A DNA stretch of 12,409 nt from a virus. Lineage: Duplodnaviria; Heunggongvirae; Uroviricota; Caudoviricetes. The first letter of the stretch is position 1, and the number at the start of each line of letters is the position of its first letter. A program made the position numbers and the translations under genes. Below the pieces are notes generated by a model. The model searched no databases, was not told the origin of the DNA, and saw only the letters and a list, made by a program, of their open reading frames with translations. Positions 272 through 10,270 of this stretch are shown here, one piece after another. The stretch is taken from the IMG/VR virus record IMGVR_UViG_3300028968_000090; one strand, 5' to 3'.

Positions 272-341
272 GTTTTCGGTGGAAAAGCCAGAGGCGACAC
301 CGAAAGAGAATTCTGATCTTATTAATCTTATCTATCTTAGT

Positions 342-393
342 TATCTTACTTACTTATCTTACTTACTTATCTTACTTACTTATCTTACTTACT
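342..393 (+). repeat. Tandem direct repeat, 4 perfect copies of the 13-bp unit tatcttacttact, with degenerate copies on both sides
   Basis: Perfect units at 342..354, 355..367, 368..380 and 381..393. Degenerate copies at about 320..341 and 394..406. Confidence 0.85.
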
Positions 394-930
394 TTATCTA
401 CTTTATTATTAATAATAGCTTTATAAGCTCTCTGTAGCTCTCTGACGCAAGAAACAGCATTCAGGAAGGGAATCACCTTAGAAAAGTGTTCTTTGCGTCA
501 TAATGTGTTTTATGAAGGATTCAGAGGTGTTTCATAACAGAGATGTATAGAGGATACTTTAATTAATTAAAAATAAGGGGTCTAAATGCTTCTCTAACAG
601 CATTAAGCAGGGTAGAGAATGGAAACGCATTGCCTACATATATAAGCTCACTACAGGGCTTTACAGAACGTTTTATAAAGTGACTCTCTATCTTATATCT
701 ACCATTACCTTTTCATATACCTAACAAATACAAAATAAGCCCCTTAAATAAGCCTCTGGCGAGCTAAACAACCTCTACATAAGAGAATGTATTGCTTTTA
801 TCAAAACTTCGTTAGAACGCGTTTTAGAGCGTTTTAGACAATAATGAAGAATAGCACCACACAGGAGAGCACGAATTGCTAAGAAAAAATGTAAGTGCAT
901 GAAAAAGATCAGATTTTTTATGAAAAGGTA

Positions 931-1497: not shown

Positions 1498-2190
1498 ATG
1501 ATTAATCAACTAACTTTTACAAAACACTATGACACGTTTGATAATGTATCAAAGATTTATTCTGATAAATTCCCTCAAGGAAAAGATTTAGATCTATTAC
1601 ATATTGTGCTTTATTTTCGATTCCTTAGTTATCAGGAAAACAACCTTAATTGTTATGAAAGTCACGAAACATTAGCTAAGATTTTTAAGTCTTCATCGTC
1701 AACAATTAAACGTAAGATAAACGATCTTAAAGAGATGGGATTATTAGAAACATCCCCACATCCTGATCCGTATATTTCATCTTTGATTTACAATGCTCTC
1801 CCTCTCACAGATGCACATATTACTCCCCCAGGAGAATCATCACTCTCTGATCTTTCTGAGGCAGAAGAAGCACAGGAACAACCTAAAGGCCATAAACAGC
1901 CTTCTTTTGATGTTCTTGATGATGATTGGGATACGCCTTTACCGTGGGAGACGGAAGAAACACCTGTTTCATCAAGTGATAAGGTAGCTAATGATAATGA
2001 GGAGGATGTGTTAGAGAATTTTGCCTCTCTTATCATCCAGAAGAAACACACCAGAACAGGAGGGGCATCATTTATAGAATTTGCAAATTCACTAGCTTAT
2101 AGACACGGGCTAAAACGACCAAATGGTATTGAGGCATATTTTTCTAAGAATTACCCAAATGTGTATGAAGACTTTGATATTCCATTTTAA
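1498..2190 (+). CDS. Winged-HTH-like DNA-binding protein with acidic C-terminal region (230 aa); possible replication initiator or transcription regulator
   Basis: Strong RBS (aaggag). Segment LSYQENNLNCYESHETLAKIFKSSSSTIKRKINDLKEMGLLE resembles HTH domains of phage/plasmid replication or regulator proteins. Central and C-terminal part is rich in D/E. Confidence 0.55.
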   Translation: MINQLTFTKHYDTFDNVSKIYSDKFPQGKDLDLLHIVLYFRFLSYQENNLNCYESHETLAKIFKSSSSTIKRKINDLKEMGLLETSPHPDPYISSLIYNALPLTDAHITPPGESSLSDLSEAEEAQEQPKGHKQPSFDVLDDDWDTPLPWETEETPVSSSDKVANDNEEDVLENFASLIIQKKHTRTGGASFIEFANSLAYRHGLKRPNGIEAYFSKNYPNVYEDFDIPF

Positions 2191-3703: not shown

Positions 3704-3916
3704 ATGTTGTTCTTAAATGATAAAGAGCAAATCATCAAATATAAAGATGAAATGCTGAAAATTAATCCACAAATTACCGAAATGGTAGCTAAATACGCTG
3801 GGTGTTCTGTCGAGGAAGTAGAAAGATGTGTTGAAAAATATTTTTCTCCTTCTTCTCCGTCTACACCTTCCCTTAATGAATTAATCAAATTAAAAGCTAA
3901 GGAGATTACTAAATGA
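3704..3916 (+). CDS. Hypothetical small protein (70 aa)
   Basis: ORF whose stop overlaps the next start (ATGA at 3913..3916), indicating translational coupling. Confidence 0.5.
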   Translation: MLFLNDKEQIIKYKDEMLKINPQITEMVAKYAGCSVEEVERCVEKYFSPSSPSTPSLNELIKLKAKEITK

Positions 3917-4275
3917 TTATTGATTTAGACACTCTATTTCCAGTTCGAAAGACTTTCACAGATATTGTAAGTTATTGTACTGATCCGTTTGCCTCTGTAG
4001 AAAGCAAGGTTTTTGCTTCTCTTCCTGCTGATGTTGAGTGTGGCGACTTGATCACAAGCACGGGCGCTAAATATGAATCAGGAGATGATATCTATGTTGT
4101 TATGAGTGAATTTTTAACGGCTGGAGAAAACAAGCCTGTAGATGTGCTACGTAGCAATGCTGGCCTTGTCTGCATCAAAGCTGATGCCCTGAATGCTGTA
4201 AGTGAAGCAGCAAAAACAGCATTAATTAAAAAAGGCTTCCAGCTTGAAGGCTTTAATACGGTTTTCACTTCTTAA
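3913..4275 (+). CDS. Hypothetical protein (120 aa); by position possibly a head decoration/scaffold-type partner of the downstream capsid-like gene
   Basis: Strong RBS (aaggag). Sits immediately upstream of the 342-aa gene. No sequence-level recognition of a decoration protein; the functional guess is positional only. Confidence 0.45.
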   Translation: MIIDLDTLFPVRKTFTDIVSYCTDPFASVESKVFASLPADVECGDLITSTGAKYESGDDIYVVMSEFLTAGENKPVDVLRSNAGLVCIKADALNAVSEAAKTALIKKGFQLEGFNTVFTS

Positions 4276-4293: not shown

Positions 4294-5322
4294 ATGATTC
4301 TAGGTAATGATTACGTTGATTTAGCTCCGCTTTTCCAGGCTCATAGCACTAGAAACTATCTGCTCTCTACTCTTGATTTTACGGATTCTGTAGGGGTTAC
4401 ATCTCATAAAGTAGCTGTTTCCCAGCTTGTCGAAAGCAACGAATCTCTGTTCAACAAAGAAACCTCTCGTTTCTCTTCTGAACACAACGTTACTAAGCGA
4501 GAACAAGGTAAAGAATGGCTGATTGAAATCCCTTACTTCCTGCGTGAAGATGTGATCCGTCCTTCTGATGTTCAAGGCAAACGTAAACCTGGCACTGATT
4601 TTCAGGAAACACTCACTGATATTTATGCTGACTATGTTGCTAAACACCACGTAGCGTATCAGCGCACTAAAGAAAGCGTATTGGCTGCATCTCTGTTTAG
4701 CGGTAAAACTTACACGCCTAAAACTGATGATGTGTTAATTGAGTGGGGCAAGCTGTTTAACGTATCAGCTATGAAAGCCACTGTGAACGCTTCCAGCACT
4801 GACACCACGAAGATTTTTAAAGAATTTGATCAGATTGCTACTGACATTATCGAGAAAGCACAAAGCCAGGCGGCTGCTGTAGAGCGTATTGTTGTTTTCT
4901 GTAAGCCGGAAGCCTTCTCTGCAATTCGATTCTCTGCTGGTATGGCAAACGCATTCCAGTATGTAAGCCCACTGGAAGAGGGAAATGTTGTGTACCAGCG
5001 TCGTGACCTGCTACCAGGAGTGACAGCGTTCACTATTCCAGGAACTAACATTGATGTTATTAAACTGGTAGATCCGCTACATCTTGCACATATGACCGCA
5101 GACGCTGTAGCTGTGCCTAAATTCGCTAAAGGCTCTAACGTATATCAGAACATCTACGGGGCTGCTTCCAGCACCTTTGAACTGATCAATGCCGATCCTA
5201 CTGAGGTTTATAGCTACAGCTATGAATCTTCTCGTGGTGATGCTGTTAACGTTGTTACAGAGAATAGCCAGATGGTTGTAAACCACGGTGTAGGCTTCTC
5301 CGTTCAAATCACTGTTAAATAA
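4294..5322 (+). CDS. Putative phage major capsid protein (342 aa), tentatively lambda gpE-like
   Basis: Good RBS; the only gene in the element closed by a strong intrinsic terminator. Size and a few motifs (LAASLFSGKTYT, ERIVVFCKPEAFSAIRF) resemble my recollection of lambda E-type capsid proteins. The function is unverified. Confidence 0.4.
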   Translation: MILGNDYVDLAPLFQAHSTRNYLLSTLDFTDSVGVTSHKVAVSQLVESNESLFNKETSRFSSEHNVTKREQGKEWLIEIPYFLREDVIRPSDVQGKRKPGTDFQETLTDIYADYVAKHHVAYQRTKESVLAASLFSGKTYTPKTDDVLIEWGKLFNVSAMKATVNASSTDTTKIFKEFDQIATDIIEKAQSQAAAVERIVVFCKPEAFSAIRFSAGMANAFQYVSPLEEGNVVYQRRDLLPGVTAFTIPGTNIDVIKLVDPLHLAHMTADAVAVPKFAKGSNVYQNIYGAASSTFELINADPTEVYSYSYESSRGDAVNVVTENSQMVVNHGVGFSVQITVK

Positions 5323-5408: not shown

Positions 5409-5612
5409 ATGGAAGTGATTCTGAAATCAAAAAATGGTGTACACGTACATTTAGATGCTAATGATTCTAGAGGCTTGTTAAATCTGAAATATCTATGTTC
5501 TCTCTTAGATGTTCCATATGAAGGAGTAAAAGCCCGTATGTTCAGATTAAACGAGAGCATTGATCAGGCTCTACACCATTTCTTAAGCAAAGAAGGTGAT
5601 AAAAATGATTAA
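5409..5612 (+). CDS. Hypothetical small protein (67 aa)
   Basis: ORF with gagagg RBS; stop lies 14 nt before the next gene's start. Confidence 0.45.
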   Translation: MEVILKSKNGVHVHLDANDSRGLLNLKYLCSLLDVPYEGVKARMFRLNESIDQALHHFLSKEGDKND

Positions 5613-5626
5613 TAAGGGGATTTTAA

Positions 5627-7477
5627 ATGTTAGAAATTAACACTTCTAAAATTAAGAACACAGTAACATTTAGTGTAGATAAAGACAGCTTGAAAAAAGC
5701 GAAAGACTCTATTACAGGCTTAAAGGGATTCGTAGAAAATATCAAGCCAGCTAAGTTAAGGTTTGATAATGTCACTAAAGGCTATAAGAAAGCACAAAGT
5801 GAAGTAGATAAGATTGCTCAACAGAAAGCTAAAACAGAAAAACAAAATCAAAGAGCACAAGCTGCCGCAGCAAGAGCACAGGCAAGGCAACAGCAACAAA
5901 TAGCAGCACGTAAAGAGAAAGCAGAATTAAAACTGTTAGACGTTGGATCAAGCATTAGTGCAATGCACCGTCTCTCTGTAGCGGAACAATATAAAGCTAT
6001 TGCACAGGCTAGAGAGATAGCAAAACAATATGAGCAAGGCGCTATCTCGCTTGCACGTATGAATAGCCAAATGAAACGCCTACAACAGCAACAACGTAAG
6101 ATTAATGGCAACAGAAAAGCTCAATTAGCCCCCGTTAAGGGAGGATCAGGGAATTCCGCCACTATGGGCGCTCTGTTATTTGGAGGCGCTACAGCGGCGG
6201 CTGGCGTGATGGCTGTAAGCAAAGCCTCTGATTTTGTTACTAGCAGCTTCGCTAACGCAGACACCCAAGGGGAGCTAATTCAACGGGCCAAGCTGGGCGG
6301 TGTAGACGTTAACCAGATGTATAATATTACAGAATGGGCGTATAAAAACGGCGTTGACTCTATGATGGGTGATCAAGGGGCTAGGAAATACCTGGATCAG
6401 ATGAAAGATGTTAGGGAACGTGCCGCAAAATCCTACAGTGAAGCTGAATTGGTGAAAGATAAGCAAACCGGAAAATCTAAATGGAAAGGCGGTGATAACG
6501 CTATTAATGAACTTCTAAACATCGGAGTTATTAACAAAAGCGACCTTAAAAAATTTGCTGATAATCCAGCCGGATTAATTTCTAAGGCTGTTAATGGAAT
6601 GATGAAAAAAGGGTTTTCAGACTCCCAAATTGGACAACGTTTAGAAGACCTGGGCGATGATTTGATGCTTACATCAAAATATTGGCAACGTTCCGTTAAA
6701 GATGTACAAGAAAGTATTAACCAGCAAAAAGCCTCTGGAAAATGGCTAACAGAAACACAGCAAGACTCTATTGTTAAGTTCAGAGAACTAAACAGACAGC
6801 TTTCACAGCTTTCTGATGCAAGACAAGTAGCATTCGTAGACGGCTTTATGAAATCTCTTGATCCAAAAGTAACGGAAGAGTTTATGAAAAACCTTTCTAA
6901 TCTCACTCCGTATTTTACAAAACTGGGAGAAGCCACGGGAAGTCTCTTTGAAGCTATTATGAAGATTGTAAACTGGTTTAATCGTAATGATGATAAGACA
7001 GATGCTATTCAGAAAAATATGGGTGATGCACCGCCATTAAGCAATGATGGGATGAAGAAGAATTTAGATAATCTCACTCCTGATCAATATAAAGGCGCTG
7101 GCACTGCAACAACTACACCTGATAATAGTCATTCTCTCTTTAACACGATTAAGGGATGGCTTTTCGATGATAATGCTTCTTCTGTGTCAGATGTAAAAAT
7201 GTCAGTCAGCGAAGCACCGATAACCAATCTCAAACAGGGTGCTTTAAATAATCTTGCAATGACAACTCCGGCTTATAATTTATCTCCTGTATTCAATCTG
7301 AATCCTACATTTGAAGTGGTAACAGAGGTTCCTCTTACTATTAATTCTGACACATCAAGATTAAGCGATTATGTGGATTTTACAGCAAGAGCAAGTCGGG
7401 ATAGCTTCTTGAAATCATTAACATTAACCAGCTTATCAGGACAATCCAACGGCGGGNNNNNNNNNNTCCCGCCATAA
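5627..7477 (+). CDS. Large coiled-coil protein with a Gly/Ala-rich hydrophobic segment (about 616 aa); tape-measure-, scaffold- or ejection-protein-like. C-terminus uncertain because of the N gap
   Basis: RBS aagggg. Q/A/K/R-rich predicted coiled coil at about residues 60-165; hydrophobic GALLFGGATAAAGVMAVSKA segment. The ORF crosses the 10 N at 7457..7466, so the reading frame beyond the gap is not established. Confidence 0.55.
   Translation: MLEINTSKIKNTVTFSVDKDSLKKAKDSITGLKGFVENIKPAKLRFDNVTKGYKKAQSEVDKIAQQKAKTEKQNQRAQAAAARAQARQQQQIAARKEKAELKLLDVGSSISAMHRLSVAEQYKAIAQAREIAKQYEQGAISLARMNSQMKRLQQQQRKINGNRKAQLAPVKGGSGNSATMGALLFGGATAAAGVMAVSKASDFVTSSFANADTQGELIQRAKLGGVDVNQMYNITEWAYKNGVDSMMGDQGARKYLDQMKDVRERAAKSYSEAELVKDKQTGKSKWKGGDNAINELLNIGVINKSDLKKFADNPAGLISKAVNGMMKKGFSDSQIGQRLEDLGDDLMLTSKYWQRSVKDVQESINQQKASGKWLTETQQDSIVKFRELNRQLSQLSDARQVAFVDGFMKSLDPKVTEEFMKNLSNLTPYFTKLGEATGSLFEAIMKIVNWFNRNDDKTDAIQKNMGDAPPLSNDGMKKNLDNLTPDQYKGAGTATTTPDNSHSLFNTIKGWLFDDNASSVSDVKMSVSEAPITNLKQGALNNLAMTTPAYNLSPVFNLNPTFEVVTEVPLTINSDTSRLSDYVDFTARASRDSFLKSLTLTSLSGQSNGGXXXXPP
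7457..7466. other. Assembly gap or masked bases (10 N)
   Basis: Run of n characters flanked by an inverted repeat, ggcggg on the left and tcccgcc on the right. Confidence 0.95.
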
Positions 7478-7498: not shown

Positions 7499-8212
7499 AT
7501 GGCGACCGCCGGGATTTTAACCATACGTGCAGCAAATACTCCAGAACAACACGTTCAGGCTGTTTACAAAGCAGAACAAGATATAAACTCTACAAAAAAC
7601 GAAAATAGCAAAGCTAATAAAACAAAAGGAGAGAACGGATTTGCTATTGTTACCAGTGGCTTGGCATCTTCTGGCAATGACGTTTATGAAAATTATATGG
7701 CACTGGCCTTTGACAGTGTAGACGATGTGAACGTGAGACGTTCGGCAGATGTCACAAGCTACCCCGTAGAAAATGGTGCTACTGTGTCTGATCACGTTCA
7801 AATTAAAAACAATAAATTTTCTCTTAAAGGGCGTATCTCTGAAACACCGATTAAAAGCGATCCTGGCTTGTTAAAGAGTGCAGGGGTGAACGGGAACAGA
7901 AGATCATTAGCTATCGACTACCTGAATCAGATTATGGACAGTAGACAGCCTTTTCTTCTTGTTACAGAAAATAAAACTTTTGAGAACGTTGTTTTAACAG
8001 GCATCGAATACACAGAAGAGGCAAGCGAATCCCTGGTATTTGATCTTAGCTTTGAGCAAATAAGATTAGTTTCTTATGGCACTGTAAACACTGTAGCTAT
8101 CAAAACACAGCCATCTAAGAACATCGGGGCTAATATGAAAAAACGTGTTAACACTGAAAAACCAAGTAGTGAAGGTGAAGACACTATTACTCCTGCCTTT
8201 AAGCAGGAATAG
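7499..8212 (+). CDS. Hypothetical protein (237 aa), last plus-strand gene before the integrase
   Basis: ORF with aagga RBS. No recognisable domain. Confidence 0.5.
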   Translation: MATAGILTIRAANTPEQHVQAVYKAEQDINSTKNENSKANKTKGENGFAIVTSGLASSGNDVYENYMALAFDSVDDVNVRRSADVTSYPVENGATVSDHVQIKNNKFSLKGRISETPIKSDPGLLKSAGVNGNRRSLAIDYLNQIMDSRQPFLLVTENKTFENVVLTGIEYTEEASESLVFDLSFEQIRLVSYGTVNTVAIKTQPSKNIGANMKKRVNTEKPSSEGEDTITPAFKQE

Positions 8213-8293: not shown

Positions 8294-9628
8294 CTATGGC
8301 GTTGTTTTACGCCTTAAATTTGATTTTTTATTGATTGATAAGCCTTTCTCTATTTCAGGGTAGCGTAGAAGCTCAATATAGTTTTTAAGCTCTACTGGAG
8401 AAGCTGCATTCTTGCTATATGTGCGGAATGTCTCTGTATTACCGCGTGTATGGCCCAGGAGAAGGGCGATCCTGTCTTCTGGAATTTGATTTCGATCAAG
8501 AAGCTGTGCTACTCCGTGTCTCAGAGAATGAAACACCTTCCTTTCTGTTCCCTTTTCCCCTAAAGCCTTTCGTTTAGCTCTTGTAAATCTCTGCGTGTGC
8601 CACGTGGAACGTTTACCATCAGCACGTTCTGTGATGCTGGCGTGATAGAACAAAAAGCCATTGTGAGGCTTTTCACGAAGAGATAACACCAACGGAGTGA
8701 TAAGGCTATGCACAGGCACAACACGTGCCGCAGCTTTCGTTTTTCCCTGTGTGATTTCAAAACACAGCACACCTTCGATCTCTTTCACATCGTCTATTGT
8801 GAGACTTGCTATCTCATTGATCCGCATACCTGTATAAGCACCGATAAGACACAAAGCCATCATTTCTTTGTTTTCTGCTGAATTACCGGAAAATACTTGC
8901 AACACTTGCAATAGCTCTTTGTTAGAAAATGCCTCATAGCTCTCTCTACTTTGTGCCACATCAAGCCTATGCCCTCGCCAGGGGGAGAGCGCCCTTTCTG
9001 GCGCATCGTGGTAACGTGATGAAGCTAACTCCCATAGCTGGGCCATTGGGCTGATATAATTTGCAATTGATTGTTGTGAAAGGGTTTTTTGCATGTGTTC
9101 AATCCAGCCTGTAACAGTGGTGCGGCTCACATCTTGCAATGCAATATCAGGCTTTTTACGGTAGGAGAGAAACATCTCTACCGCTTTTCTTGCCTTAGCT
9201 AAAGTGGCTGGCTTCTTCTTCGTGCTGTTAATTGTCAGGTAGATTTCAAGAATTTTAAGCAATGACGGACACGAAGACGCTGTATCTTGCATTCTGGTAG
9301 CTGTTTTGGCGTATTTAGCCTTACTGCGTAACAGTTCCAGCGTGTTCTCTATTGTGCTGTTTACAGGGGCGACACTCTCCCGTAGACAATGGTATTCATC
9401 TGCAATCTGATCACGCTTTCTACGTGCAACACGAAGATTACTTGTATGTAGACTCCTGACAAACGTCCTTTTTCCTTCAAAAAAGGGCTGCATATACACA
9501 GGCAACGTGATCCTCAAATAGTAGTTACCGTAAGAATCACAGATTATGTATTGGTTAGGCTTGTATCTCATAAAATCTCCGGCTAAAGTGTCGGAGCGTT
9601 TGTAATGTGAAAATTGATTGTAACGCAT
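8294..9628 (-). CDS. int: Tyrosine-type site-specific integrase (phage integrase family)
   Basis: C-terminal catalytic signature: TGMRINE (Arg box), HSLRH, LLGH and a downstream Tyr (RTYSK). Sits beside the tRNA-derived attachment core. The internal ATG at 9571 has a ggag SD and may be the true start (425 aa instead of 444 aa). Confidence 0.85.
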   Translation of the reverse strand: MRYNQFSHYKRSDTLAGDFMRYKPNQYIICDSYGNYYLRITLPVYMQPFFEGKRTFVRSLHTSNLRVARRKRDQIADEYHCLRESVAPVNSTIENTLELLRSKAKYAKTATRMQDTASSCPSLLKILEIYLTINSTKKKPATLAKARKAVEMFLSYRKKPDIALQDVSRTTVTGWIEHMQKTLSQQSIANYISPMAQLWELASSRYHDAPERALSPWRGHRLDVAQSRESYEAFSNKELLQVLQVFSGNSAENKEMMALCLIGAYTGMRINEIASLTIDDVKEIEGVLCFEITQGKTKAAARVVPVHSLITPLVLSLREKPHNGFLFYHASITERADGKRSTWHTQRFTRAKRKALGEKGTERKVFHSLRHGVAQLLDRNQIPEDRIALLLGHTRGNTETFRTYSKNAASPVELKNYIELLRYPEIEKGLSINKKSNLRRKTTP

Positions 9629-9671
9629 AGAAAATGATAATTTTTTCTATAAGATTCAATCAATTAGTAAT

Positions 9672-9733
9672 GGTCGTAGGTGATGGCATTAACACGAGAT
9701 TAATCGAGTGTTTTACTCCTATTATCGGCACCA
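9672..9733 (+). other. tRNA-Thr-derived attachment site: 3'-end fragment of a thrW-like tRNA (pseudo-tRNA, ptwF-like)
   Basis: actcctattatcggcacca at 9715..9733 matches the 3' T-arm/acceptor/CCA end of enterobacterial tRNA-Thr(CGU) as I recall it. ggtcgtaggt at 9672..9681 matches the preceding tRNA segment but is separated from the rest by a 33-nt non-tRNA insert. There is no intact tRNA. Confidence 0.55.
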
Positions 9734-9859
9734 TTAAAATCAAAGAGTTACCCCATATTTAAATACACCACGTTTCCTCCTGTGCCGCATTTGTGCCATT
9801 GTAACCTTGGCAATTCATCAAAATACTGTTCTGACATCAGGCAGTGCAGGTGCAGCTAT

Positions 9860-10270
9860 TTAAACCAATTGCTGCCGCCATTCTTTGACGTAGTCAATCA
9901 GGGCGCGGAGCTTTGGTGCAATATTGCGACGCTGTGGGAAATACAGATAGAAGCCCGGAAATTGTGGAAGAAAGTCATCAAGCAGCGATACAAGCTTACC
10001 GCTTTCAATATATGGCCTGAAAGTTTCCTGAGTGGCAATTGTTATTCCTCCGCCGGCAAGAGCCAGCCTCACCATCAGACGCAGATCATTAGTCGTAATC
10101 TGCGGTTCAATCGCAAGGTCGAAAGTTCTCCCGTTTTCTTCAAATGGCCAGCGATAAGGCGCAACCTCCGGGGACTGACGCCAGCCGATACACTTATGGG
10201 TATTTCCCCCGGAGGCGAGAAAGCGCTCTCCACGCCCGGCCGCAAGGATCAGGACGACGGGGGCAGGCAT
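9860..10270 (-). CDS. yagP: Truncated LysR-family regulator remnant: substrate-binding domain only, no N-terminal HTH (136 aa)
   Basis: C-terminal LysR-like sequence (FPQRRNIAPKLRALIDYVKEWRQ). Its start overlaps the stop of the upstream XdhC-family gene, so there is no room for the HTH domain. Matches the 136-aa yagP remnant downstream of paoD in E. coli, from memory. Confidence 0.55.
   Translation of the reverse strand: MPAPVVLILAAGRGERFLASGGNTHKCIGWRQSPEVAPYRWPFEENGRTFDLAIEPQITTNDLRLMVRLALAGGGITIATQETFRPYIESGKLVSLLDDFLPQFPGFYLYFPQRRNIAPKLRALIDYVKEWRQQLV

What the first reader, a model, noticed from the sequence alone, without database searches (positions are those of the whole stretch)
5627..7477. 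616-aa coiled-coil protein with a hydrophobic Gly/Ala segment, interrupted by an N gap flanked by an inverted repeat
The composition (long Q/A/K-rich coiled coil, then a glycine-rich hydrophobic stretch) recalls tape-measure, scaffold or DNA-ejection proteins, but it is short for a tape measure and no tail genes accompany it. The 10-N gap at 7457..7466 is bracketed by ggcggg and tcccgcc, so the unresolved bases probably sit in a GC hairpin. The true stop codon and C-terminus are therefore unknown, and an additional small feature could be hidden there.
Basis: partly seen in the sequence, partly recalled or inferred. Interest (0 to 1): 0.45.

Follow-up and report, generated by a model that had tools for sequence, protein, structure and literature searches.

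The report
Satellite-island tape measure protein, E. coli
The 616-aa ORF is really a 610-aa tail tape measure protein carried by a 12.3-kb integrative island found in about 9% of complete E. coli genomes, and the island looks like an undescribed satellite of virulent phi92/phAPEC8-like phages that supplies its own capsid protein and tail-core parts.

Summary
The ORF, the 10-N gap and the flanking GGCGGG/CCCGCC inverted repeat are all real. The 616-aa length is an artefact. In 15 of 16 gap-free copies the gap reads TAAT, so a TAA stop follows …SGQSNGG and the protein is 610 aa. [quoted passage not shown] The next gene is a tube initiator, 58-60% identical to the phage's, so tail genes do accompany it. 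The gene is under purifying selection (dN/dS 0.07-0.2). It lies in a conserved module (p70, p120, major capsid protein, p67, TMP, tube initiator, integrase) on a ~12.3-kb island bounded by att repeats at thrW, leuX or srsR. The island has no portal, terminase, tube, sheath or baseplate genes. Two island lineages each carry, in a non-coding arm, a copy of the sequence spanning the terminal-repeat boundary of a different phage genus (Justusliebigvirus, Phapecoctavirus). Best explanation: a satellite that builds chimeric tails around its own, ~50-aa shorter TMP, as shown for Vibrio PLE satellites in 2026. Mobilisation is inferred, not shown.

The parts
5627..7459 (+). Tape measure protein gene: 610 codons (5627-7456) plus an inferred TAA stop at 7457-7459, hidden by the Ns
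   Evidence: phrog_16051 'tail length tape measure', 9.4e-53. PDB 21vq_V phi92 gp134, 2.1e-38. BLASTP to PHB05 TMP, 9e-33, end to end. dN/dS 0.07-0.20. Stop inferred from 15 of 16 relatives.
5627..5746 (+). N-terminal 40 residues, unusually similar to the Justusliebigvirus TMP
   Evidence: 72% aa identity to PHB05 against 45% to island lineage 2. 81% DNA identity over 106 nt including the RBS. pS 0.44 against ~0.72 elsewhere, on only 18 synonymous sites.
5765..6127 (+). A/Q/K-rich long-helix (coiled-coil-like) region, residues 47-167; about 70 aa shorter than in the phage TMP
   Evidence: AF2 helices 47-111, 118-136 and 142-167, pLDDT 80-95. Composition. Alignment gaps relative to PHB05.
6131..6238 (+). 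Gly/Ala-rich hydrophobic segment, residues 169-204; aligned with the equivalent segment of the phage TMP
   Evidence: Highest Kyte-Doolittle 19-residue stretches at 176-183. Aligned in BLASTP. Low AF2 confidence.
6239..6796 (+). Conserved central helical domain, residues 205-390; holds the family's invariant residues and is swapped as a block between island lineages
   Evidence: pLDDT 83-94. Invariant D257, K260, D261, E340. Mosaic TMPs in L021 and L022. No match in solved structures.
7307..7456 (+). C-terminal region ending ...LTLTSLSGQSNGG; aligns with the part of phi92 gp134 (residues 631-656) seen inside the baseplate
   Evidence: Global alignment gives 35-50% identity in the last 50 residues. 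phi92 structure paper. Not significant when searched alone.
7451..7473 (+). GC hairpin (GGCGGG / CCCGCC) whose loop holds the stop codon; the 10-N run 7457-7466 replaces about 4 nt (TAAT)
   Evidence: Reconstructed fold has a 6-bp stem and 5-nt loop; the 65-nt context folds at -14.4 kcal/mol (z -1.86). No T tract follows.
5409..5612 (+). p67, a small conserved ORF always found immediately upstream of the TMP gene; HTH-like pattern; function unknown
   Evidence: Conserved in E. coli lineage 2, Buttiauxella, Citrobacter and Phytobacter at 31-52% identity. No similarity to the phage's pre-TMP ORF.
7499..8212 (+). Tail tube initiator (Dit-like), homologue of phi92 gp135
   Evidence: Pfam PF21821, 2.6e-29. 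58-60% identity to Justusliebigvirus. PDB 21vq_N, 7.6e-78.
4294..5322 (+). Major capsid protein (HK97 fold, lambda gpE-type family)
   Evidence: Pfam PF03864, 1.6e-14. 22% identity to PHB05 MCP. PDB 9zbi_A 5.6e-11 and phi92 gp124 8.6e-6.
3704..4275 (+). p70 and p120, two conserved ORFs upstream of the MCP; p120 occupies the position of the phage cement/decoration gene, but homology is not shown
   Evidence: Conserved order across genera. hhalign against the phage cement protein is not significant.
8294..9628 (-). Tyrosine integrase
   Evidence: Pfam PF00589, 2.9e-17, and phrog_1.
9669..9734 (+). Island right junction: island ends at 9668, followed by a degenerate tRNA-Thr 3' copy with the 20-bp att core ACTCCTATTATCGGCACCAT (9715-9734)
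   Evidence: Comparison of island copies and junctions.
1498..2190 (+). HTH / replication-initiator-like protein of the island
   Evidence: phrog_270 and related replication-initiation families, 3.6e-9. HTH_36.

Best explanation
The ORF encodes the 610-aa tail tape measure protein of a ~12.3-kb integrative island that behaves like a phage satellite of virulent Stephanstirmvirinae myophages (phi92-like Justusliebigvirus and phAPEC8-like Phapecoctavirus).

Proposed mechanism. When a helper phage infects, the island's p67-TMP-tube initiator genes are expressed. A TMP trimer seats its C-terminus in the helper's baseplate hub, under a hexamer of the island's own tube initiator. Helper tube and sheath then polymerise around the TMP until they reach its N-terminus, which matches the helper's. 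The result is a chimeric tail. Because the island TMP is about 50 aa shorter, the tail should be roughly 5-7 nm shorter. These tails would join small capsids built from the island's own capsid protein and filled with island DNA, which the helper terminase recognises through a copied genome-end site. On infection the TMP is ejected first, and its Gly/Ala hydrophobic segment helps to form the channel across the inner membrane.

Shown here: TMP homology and architecture; the tube-initiator neighbour; purifying selection; the conserved module; att-bounded integration at several sites; absence of all other virion genes; the copied terminus sequence in two island lineages.

Inferred: helper dependence, packaging, chimeric tails, shorter tails and small capsids.

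The N gap is an assembly or masking artefact over the loop of a GC hairpin that contains the real TAA stop.
For: TMP identity. phrog_16051, 9.4e-53. phi92 gp134, PDB 21vq_V, 2.1e-38. gp134 is the trimeric TMP, with residues 631-656 inside the baseplate. End-to-end BLASTP to the PHB05 TMP aligns the hydrophobic segment and the C-terminal end. AF2 predicts long helices and a confident central domain. The best named BFVD fold matches are myophage TMPs.

Context. The tube initiator is immediately downstream. The gene order matches the phage order with the intervening genes removed. Only MCP, TMP and tube initiator have homologues in a whole helper-type genome.

Maintained function. dN/dS is 0.07-0.20 at dS 0.13-0.22, and about 0.2 between lineages. 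More than 800 intact clusters were found. The module is conserved in Phytobacter, Citrobacter, Buttiauxella and Kluyvera.

Mobile element. The island is 12,309-12,371 bp, bounded by direct repeats at thrW, srsR or leuX, with swapped integrases. It occurs in 486 of 5426 complete E. coli genomes. Its GC content is 38.6%, against 37.5% for the phage and 58.7% for the chromosomal flank.

Link to the helper. A lineage-1 46-mer is 93% identical to phi92 nt 318-363, which spans the annotated DTR boundary at 343. Lineage 2 carries an 81-83-nt match to the equivalent unique/DTR junction of Phapecoctavirus. Nucleotide 1 of the Mt1B1_P17 genome lies inside the shared core TG(C/T)TTAACGCGA.

Precedent. 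PLE satellites encode their own TMP, chaperone and hub protein, and make chimeric tails that are 10 nm shorter; deleting tmp cuts transduction by 96-99.9%.

Gap. 15 of 16 copies read TAAT at that position.
Against: There is no direct evidence of excision, replication or packaging. The ~12.3-12.5-kb contigs only break at att repeats. IMG/VR hits are prophage calls in isolate genomes, not virome contigs. No tail assembly chaperone was identified; p67 looks like an HTH protein and has no detectable similarity to phage genes. The island MCP is only 22% identical to the presumed helper's, so its compatibility with the helper portal, scaffold and protease is unproven. The lineage-2 tube initiator is closest to Justusliebigvirus, not to the genus whose terminus it copies. 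The lineage-2 TMP has no phage-like N-terminus. The C-terminal similarity is not significant on its own. Some copies carry IS insertions in the TMP or tube-initiator genes. The shared non-coding block could be a regulatory site rather than a packaging site.
Confidence: 0.6

Rival explanations
1. Anti-phage interference module. The island's TMP and tube initiator act mainly as dominant-negative or decoy subunits that poison tail assembly of infecting phi92-like phages. This would protect the population whether or not the island itself is transferred.
For: Divergent copies of exactly the proteins that nucleate tail assembly. The N-terminus is kept helper-like while the rest diverges. Tail-assembly interference is a known defence strategy of satellites and prophages (Tai, listed; Rta). 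The island is widespread in E. coli.
Against: This does not explain why the island also keeps its own capsid protein and a copy of the phage genome-end site. In PLEs the satellite TMP is a structural component, and a separate protein (Rta) does the blocking. The two roles are not mutually exclusive.
Confidence: 0.15
2. Inert remnant of a defective prophage. The TMP gene is left over from a degraded phi92-like prophage and has no present function.
For: Only a subset of virion genes is present. Some copies are interrupted by IS elements. NCBI annotates most genes as hypothetical.
Against: Purifying selection at high synonymous divergence. The same compact six-gene module occurs in several genera. 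Intact att repeats occur at three sites with exchanged integrases. Identity to the phage proteins is only 22-60%, so this is not a recent deletion derivative. The related phages in the collection are ~145-150-kb phages, and no integrase is annotated in the PHB05 genome examined.
Confidence: 0.07
3. Self-sufficient minimal particle. The island builds a tailless or GTA-like particle or protein compartment from its own capsid protein. The 610-aa protein would serve as a scaffold or DNA-ejection protein rather than a tape measure, which is.
For: The island has its own HK97-fold capsid protein. Small HK97 elements without portal or tail genes have been proposed in metagenomes.
Against: The protein is homologous end to end to a TMP that was located inside a contractile tail. 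It is followed by a tube initiator, which has no role without a tail tube. There is no portal or terminase to fill a capsid.
Confidence: 0.03

Closest known systems
Tape measure protein gp134 of Escherichia phage phi92 (Justusliebigvirus), PDB 21vq chain V; PHROG phrog_16051
   Same: Homologous along the whole length: the N-terminal ~40 aa, the coiled-coil region, the Gly/Ala hydrophobic segment, the conserved central domain and the C-terminal ...LTL..SGQS..G end. Same position directly upstream of the tube initiator gene.
   Different: About 30% identical overall and 49-50 aa shorter (610 against 659-660). It lacks the phage's Gly-rich low-complexity insert and part of the charged coiled coil, and has an insert in the C-terminal third. 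It is encoded on an integrative chromosomal island, not on a 148-kb virulent phage genome.
PLE satellites of Vibrio cholerae phage ICP1: satellite-encoded TMP, chaperone (TAC) and baseplate hub BhuB giving chimeric tails (Nature 2026, PMC12987554)
   Same: An integrative island, apparently exploiting a virulent myophage, that encodes a divergent and shorter copy of the helper's TMP plus a second protein of the tail-initiation complex. In PLEs the TMP is 20% and BhuB 41% identical to the helper's; here the TMP is ~30% and the tube initiator 59% identical.
   Different: Different host and helper. The second component is a tube initiator, not a hub protein. No chaperone was recognised. This island encodes its own major capsid protein, whereas PLEs reuse ICP1 coat protein. 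Chimeric tails are demonstrated for PLEs and only inferred here. Sequence relatedness to the PLE TMP was not tested.
Capsid-forming PICIs (cf-PICIs) of Enterobacteria
   Same: Integrative islands of similar size that encode their own HK97-fold capsid protein and take tails from a helper. Some are reported to carry putative tmp genes.
   Different: cf-PICIs encode a full capsid and packaging module (portal, protease, connectors, terminase). This island has only the capsid protein and two small neighbouring ORFs, with no portal, protease or terminase.
Satellite phage P4
   Same: Nearly the same genome size (11.6 kb against 12.3 kb; P4 size as cited). Integration at a tRNA gene, including leuX in some copies. 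It carries a copy of the helper's packaging site; for P4 this is from my own knowledge.
   Different: P4 reshapes the helper's capsid protein with Sid and Psu and encodes no capsid protein, TMP or tube initiator. No P4-type genes were detected here.

Membership tests
Tail tape measure protein, phi92 gp134-like (phrog_16051) | Significant sequence homology to a protein experimentally located as the TMP of a tail | tested here: met
   PDB 21vq_V phi92 gp134, E 2.1e-38. phrog_16051, 9.4e-53. gp134 is identified as the trimeric TMP in the virion structure.
Tail tape measure protein, phi92 gp134-like (phrog_16051) | Gene lies in the tail module directly upstream of the tube initiator / baseplate hub genes | tested here: met
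   The tube initiator starts 39 nt after the inferred stop. Same order as PHB05 gp126-gp127.
Tail tape measure protein, phi92 gp134-like (phrog_16051) | Long alpha-helical / coiled-coil stretch plus a hydrophobic, membrane-active segment | tested here: met
   AF2 helices 47-167 with pLDDT 80-95. Hydrophobic peak at residues 176-200.
Tail tape measure protein, phi92 gp134-like (phrog_16051) | C-terminus that docks inside the baseplate hub | tested here: inconclusive
   The last 50 residues align at 35-50% identity within the global alignment. The C-terminal 69 aa alone do not retrieve gp134. No complex was modelled.
Tail tape measure protein, phi92 gp134-like (phrog_16051) | Sits in the tail lumen and sets tail length | not testable with these tools
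   Needs particles, mass spectrometry and electron microscopy.
Satellite with chimeric tail assembly (PLE type) | Element depends on, and is packaged by, a helper phage | not testable with these tools
   Indirect support only: no portal, terminase, tube, sheath or baseplate genes, and copies of two phage genera's genome-end sites.
Satellite with chimeric tail assembly (PLE type) | Encodes a divergent TMP homologous to the helper's and of different length | tested here: met
   About 30% identity; 610 aa against 659-660 aa.
Satellite with chimeric tail assembly (PLE type) | Encodes further tail-initiation components (chaperone, hub) | tested here: inconclusive
   A tube initiator is present. No chaperone was recognised; p67 has no detectable similarity to phage genes.
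Satellite with chimeric tail assembly (PLE type) | Membership in the PLE family proper (V. cholerae host, ICP1 helper, PLE core genes) | tested here: not met
   The hosts are E. coli and other Enterobacteriaceae. The phage relatives are Stephanstirmvirinae. None of the Pfam or PHROG matches to the island's ORFs is to a PLE protein, but no PLE sequence was compared directly.
cf-PICI | Complete capsid and packaging module (capsid protein, portal, protease/scaffold, connectors, terminase) | tested here: not met
   Only the capsid protein was found. The largest ORFs are TMP 610, integrase 444, MCP 342, tube initiator 237 and Rep-like 230 aa, so there is no room for a portal or large terminase.
P4-like satellite | Psu, Sid, Delta and Alpha primase genes with a P2-type cos site | tested here: not met
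   No such hits in PHROGs or Pfam for any island ORF.
Defective Stephanstirmvirinae prophage | Recent deletion derivative of a phage genome, with genes decaying | tested here: not met
   22-60% protein identity to the phage. dN/dS 0.07-0.2. The module is conserved across genera.

The most novel reading that the evidence does not exclude
A widespread, undescribed family of enterobacterial phage satellites, present in about 9% of complete E. coli genomes including the O104:H4 and APEC O1 strains examined, parasitises virulent phi92/phAPEC8-like myophages. It combines three piracy strategies in 12.3 kb: its own major capsid protein for a small head; its own tape measure and tube initiator for chimeric, slightly shorter tails; and a copied direct-terminal-repeat cleavage site matched to the helper genus so that the helper terminase packages it.
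Probability: 0.5. Interest if true: 0.85.

Novelty: new variant of a known kind. Interest (0 to 1): 0.68.

Why it matters
Satellite-encoded tape measures and chimeric tails were first demonstrated in 2026, for Vibrio PLEs, and were described there as the first case. An E. coli counterpart would show that the strategy is general. Such an element would carry its own capsid protein and a tube initiator, and would target virulent phages of a group widely studied for therapy. It would also give a tractable model in E. coli. Practically, about one in eleven complete E. coli genomes carries the island. If it interferes with or hitch-hikes on phi92/phAPEC8-like phages, it could affect phage host range, therapy outcomes and gene transfer. 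For annotation, the protein should be called a 610-aa tape measure protein and the gap should not be read through.

Tried and rejected
(1) The ~12.3-12.5-kb Logan contigs carrying the gene looked like free or packaged island genomes. They simply break at the att direct repeats (leuX or thrW), as any repeat-bounded segment would in an assembly graph, so this was rejected as evidence.

(2) IMG/VR viral contigs: all 12 loci are prophage-style calls from isolate genomes, with no virome-type contigs.

(3) PDB 9zbi, the best solved-structure match of the island MCP, turned out to be an ordinary Pseudomonas Pakpunavirus capsid and not a satellite.

(4) p120 as cement/decoration protein and p67 as the phage's pre-TMP ORF or chaperone: BLASTP and hhalign found nothing significant, and PHROG hints were only at E 0.02-0.07.

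(5) Looked for a second match to the other DTR boundary or elsewhere in the phi92 terminal region: only the 46-mer is significant.

(6) Predicted that the lineage-2 tube initiator would be closest to Phapecoctavirus: not met.

(7) Hidden enzymatic domain in the central TMP domain: Pfam has no hit and Foldseek against the PDB has nothing below E 0.4.

(8) Rfam on the ORF-poor left arm: only the flanking tRNA.

(9) The hairpin as an intrinsic terminator: no T tract.

(10) Literature searches for a described satellite of phi92/rV5-like phages found none in the held library. This is not proof that none exists.

(11) The genome-contig scan with the 17-sequence alignment failed for lack of conserved stretches, and was repeated with 5 sequences.
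Full report
**Observation.** The window has an ATG-to-TAA ORF at 5627..7477 on the + strand. Its single run of Ns is at 7457..7466, flanked by GGCGGG (7451-7456) and TCCCGCC (7467-7473). Residues 46-168 are rich in Ala, Gln and Lys. Residues 169-200 are 25% Ala and 22% Gly and contain the most hydrophobic stretch of the protein. An open frame of more than 600 codons in 39% GC DNA is far beyond chance.

**The gap.** The same gene occurs in 486 of 5426 complete E. coli genomes. In 15 of 16 gap-free copies that I fetched, the sequence at the gap is GGCGGG-TAAT-TCCCGCC. The TAA follows ...SGQSNGG directly, so the protein is 610 aa. Homologues are 608-613 aa. The ten Ns therefore stand for about four bases in the loop of a hairpin with a 6-bp GC stem. 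The 616-aa reading is an artefact of translating through the Ns to the next in-frame TAA. One natural variant (L022) has lost the stop and does read through to that same TAA. No T tract follows the hairpin, so it is not a canonical terminator. Terminator-like sites lie after the capsid gene and after the tube initiator gene. A hidden extra feature in the gap is unlikely.

**What the protein is.** PHROGs assigns it to phrog_16051, 'tail length tape measure protein', at 9.4e-53. Pfam has no model for it. Against solved structures the only real hit is phi92 gp134 (PDB 21vq chain V, 2.1e-38). The 2026 phi92 virion study identifies gp134 as the trimeric tape measure protein, with residues 631-656 of 659 resolved inside the baseplate. 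It identifies gp135 as the hexameric tube initiator, and counts 24 tube/sheath rings in the tail.

BLASTP against the 660-aa TMP of Justusliebigvirus PHB05 aligns the two proteins from end to end. This covers the N-terminal 66 aa (55% identity), the Gly/Ala hydrophobic segment, a central region (27% identity) and the C-terminal '...LTL..SGQS..G' end. An AlphaFold2 model built on a 36-sequence alignment gives confident long helices at 47-167, low confidence for the hydrophobic segment, and a well-predicted helical central domain at 205-390. That domain matches nothing in the PDB. In the viral predicted-structure library the best named matches are myophage tape measures. The family is narrow: 71 clusters at 50% identity among 1.84 billion representatives, with full-length members of 584-668 aa.

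**Tail genes do accompany it.** The next gene (7499..8212) is a Dit-like tube initiator. It matches Pfam PF21821 at 2.6e-29, is 58-60% identical to Justusliebigvirus proteins, and matches phi92 gp135 at 7.6e-78. Upstream lie a small conserved ORF (p67), a lambda-gpE-type major capsid protein (PF03864) and two more small ORFs. Downstream lies a tyrosine integrase. In PHB05 the order is decoration protein, MCP, nine further structural genes, a small ORF, TMP, tube initiator. The island has the same order with the middle removed. A tblastn of every island ORF against the whole PHB05 genome finds only MCP (22% identity), TMP and tube initiator.

**The island.** I compared full copies from strains MIN6 and NCTC10973. 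The element is 12,371 and 12,309 bp long. In MIN6 it is bounded by the 3' end of tRNA-Thr (thrW) and a degenerate copy of it. In NCTC10973 it is bounded by a 52-bp duplication of the LysR-family gene srsR. Other copies sit at leuX and carry a different integrase.

The window holds the right 9.7 kb of a thrW-type copy. The island ends at 9668, and the att core is at 9715-9734, next to the yagP remnant and paoD/paoC. Island GC is 38.6%, close to the phage's 37.5% and far from the flank's 58.7%. The left ~3.7 kb is ORF-poor.

A second lineage, found for example in O104:H4, has a TMP 63% identical to the window's and the same gene order. The p67-TMP-tube initiator block recurs in Phytobacter, Buttiauxella and, as far as the short contigs reach, Citrobacter and Kluyvera. 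Phytobacter and Citrobacter also have a 345-aa capsid-like protein and the small ORFs upstream, and Phytobacter has the integrase.

**The gene is maintained.** Within the lineage dN/dS is 0.07-0.20 at dS 0.13-0.22, and between lineages it is about 0.2. The TMP is also mosaic. In L021 and L022 residues ~211-420 are 97-100% identical to lineage 2, while both ends are window-like and all neighbouring genes are 95-100% identical to the window. The first 40 residues are 72% identical to the phage TMP but only 45% identical to lineage 2. DNA identity to the phage is 81% across the RBS and the first 88 nt of the gene. Synonymous divergence from the phage is lower there (pS 0.44 against ~0.72), though this rests on only 18 synonymous sites. 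This suggests exchange with, or constraint to match, a Justusliebigvirus partner at the end of the TMP that lies at the top of the tail.

**Link to particular phages.** The island's left arm lies outside the window. In lineage 1 it contains a 46-mer that is 93% identical to phi92/PHB05 nt 318-363. The sequence is conserved in 62 Stephanstirmvirinae records and in 428 E. coli genomes. In the phi92 reference the left direct terminal repeat is annotated 1-343, so the 46-mer spans its inner boundary.

Lineage 2 lacks this 46-mer. At the same island position and in the same orientation, it matches a non-coding terminal region of Phapecoctavirus at 81% over ~83 nt. In Phapecoctavirus Mt1B1_P17 the terminal repeat is 328 bp, as I determined by comparing the two ends. 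The island match spans the unique/repeat junction, with 29 nt outside and 52 nt inside. The first nucleotide of the phage genome lies within the core TG(C/T)TTAACGCGA, which is shared by both phage genera and both island lineages. The phi92 boundary falls in the same core, offset by one base.

So two island lineages each carry the genome-end site of a different phage genus. This is what a satellite that borrows the helper's terminase would need. A regulatory role for the block cannot be excluded.

**Comparison with known systems.** The closest functional precedent is the PLE satellites of the virulent Vibrio myophage ICP1. In 2026 they were shown to encode their own TMP, chaperone and baseplate hub protein. 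PLE virions carry the PLE TMP and exclude ICP1's. The PLE TMP is 95 aa shorter and PLE tails are 10 nm shorter. Deleting tmp cuts transduction by 96-99.9%. That paper calls PLEs the first satellites known to manipulate tail assembly, and notes putative tmp genes in PLE-like elements and in some cf-PICIs.

The island here is not a PLE, because its host, helper group and gene content differ. It is not a cf-PICI, because it has no portal, protease or terminase. It is not P4-like, because it has no psu, sid, delta or alpha genes. I found no description of a satellite of phi92/rV5-like phages in the held literature.

**Mechanism and confidence.** I regard the TMP assignment (about 0.95) and the 610-aa C-terminus (about 0.9) as settled. 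The satellite reading of the island is strongly suggested but indirect (about 0.7). That the TMP works as in PLEs is an inference by analogy (about 0.5). In that model the island TMP, seated in the helper hub under the island tube initiator, templates a chimeric tail about 50 aa (roughly 5-7 nm) shorter than the helper's.

Several points weigh against it. There is no evidence of free or packaged island DNA. No chaperone was recognised. The capsid protein is only 22% identical to the helper's. The lineage-2 tube initiator is not matched to the genus whose terminus it copies. The C-terminal similarity is not independently significant. Some copies are disrupted by IS elements. The main rival is that the tail proteins act mainly to poison helper tail assembly, and that role could coexist with a structural one.

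Noticed in passing
outside the window: MIN6 NZ_CP069692.1 3853271-3853401 (island coordinates ~1138-1183); L013 2089-2171: The ORF-poor left arm of the island carries a copy of the phage sequence that spans the direct-terminal-repeat boundary. Lineage 1 matches Justusliebigvirus (46 nt, 93%). Lineage 2 matches Phapecoctavirus (~83 nt, 81%). The shared core is TG(C/T)TTAACGCGA, and the phage genome end maps inside it.
   Followed up: yes
window 318-404: A tandem array of about 6-7 copies of a 13-nt unit (CTTATCTTACTTA) lies in non-coding DNA upstream of the regulatory and replication-like genes. Copy number varies between island copies (1-7 CTTACTTA hits), and the array is absent in lineage 2 and Phytobacter. 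It could be an iteron-like origin element or a contingency repeat.
   Followed up: partly
window 9669-9734; L002/L005; L010-L012: Near-identical islands use at least three attachment sites: thrW, leuX, and inside the LysR-family gene srsR with a 52-bp duplication. The leuX copies carry a different, 397-aa integrase. The thrW and srsR copies have ~94-95% identical integrase regions yet different att sequences.
   Followed up: partly
L021 3990-5828, L022 8066-9892 (TMP genes): These TMP genes are mosaics. Residues ~211-420 come from lineage 2, while both ends and all neighbouring genes are lineage 1. The central domain is therefore exchanged as a cassette between island lineages.
   Followed up: yes
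window 5409-5612: p67 is a 67-aa ORF conserved immediately upstream of the TMP gene in every genus examined. It has an HTH-like pattern (LLNL..LC.LLDV.Y.GV..R.FR) and no detectable homologue in the phage. It could be a regulator of the tail genes rather than a chaperone.
   Followed up: partly
window 4294-5322: The island capsid protein is more similar to the Pseudomonas Pakpunavirus capsid (PDB 9zbi, 5.6e-11; Pseudomonas myophage capsids lead the tblastn list) than to the capsid of the presumed helper (phi92 gp124, 8.6e-6, 22% identity). This contrasts with the 59% identity of the tube initiator.
   Followed up: partly
L013 12145-13125; hits H173, H174: In O104:H4 strain FDAARGOS_348 the island's tube initiator gene is split by an ISKpn26 insertion. 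In two other genomes IS2 or IS600 lies within the TMP / tube initiator region. Some copies are therefore inactivated.
   Followed up: no
L005 8036-8575, L013 2175-2726, L010 1376-1915: Many island copies carry a Hin/Gin-type serine DNA invertase (phrog_125, 1.7e-61) in the left arm, close to the terminus-like motif. The window/MIN6 type lacks it. The helper-type phage PHB05 also encodes a DNA invertase. The two were not compared.
   Followed up: no
window 9860-10270: A remnant of a LysR-family gene (yagP) lacking its N-terminus lies next to the island's integrase end, followed by paoD and paoC. This is the thrW-yagP region where K-12 carries the CP4-6 prophage; that identification is from my own knowledge.
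   Followed up: no
phage collection: Several records labelled 'Campylobacter phage' (for example A150, C3, A110a; ~146 kb) give the same matches, with identical identity and score, as E. coli Justusliebigvirus genomes. They are probably mislabelled or contaminant records.
   Followed up: no
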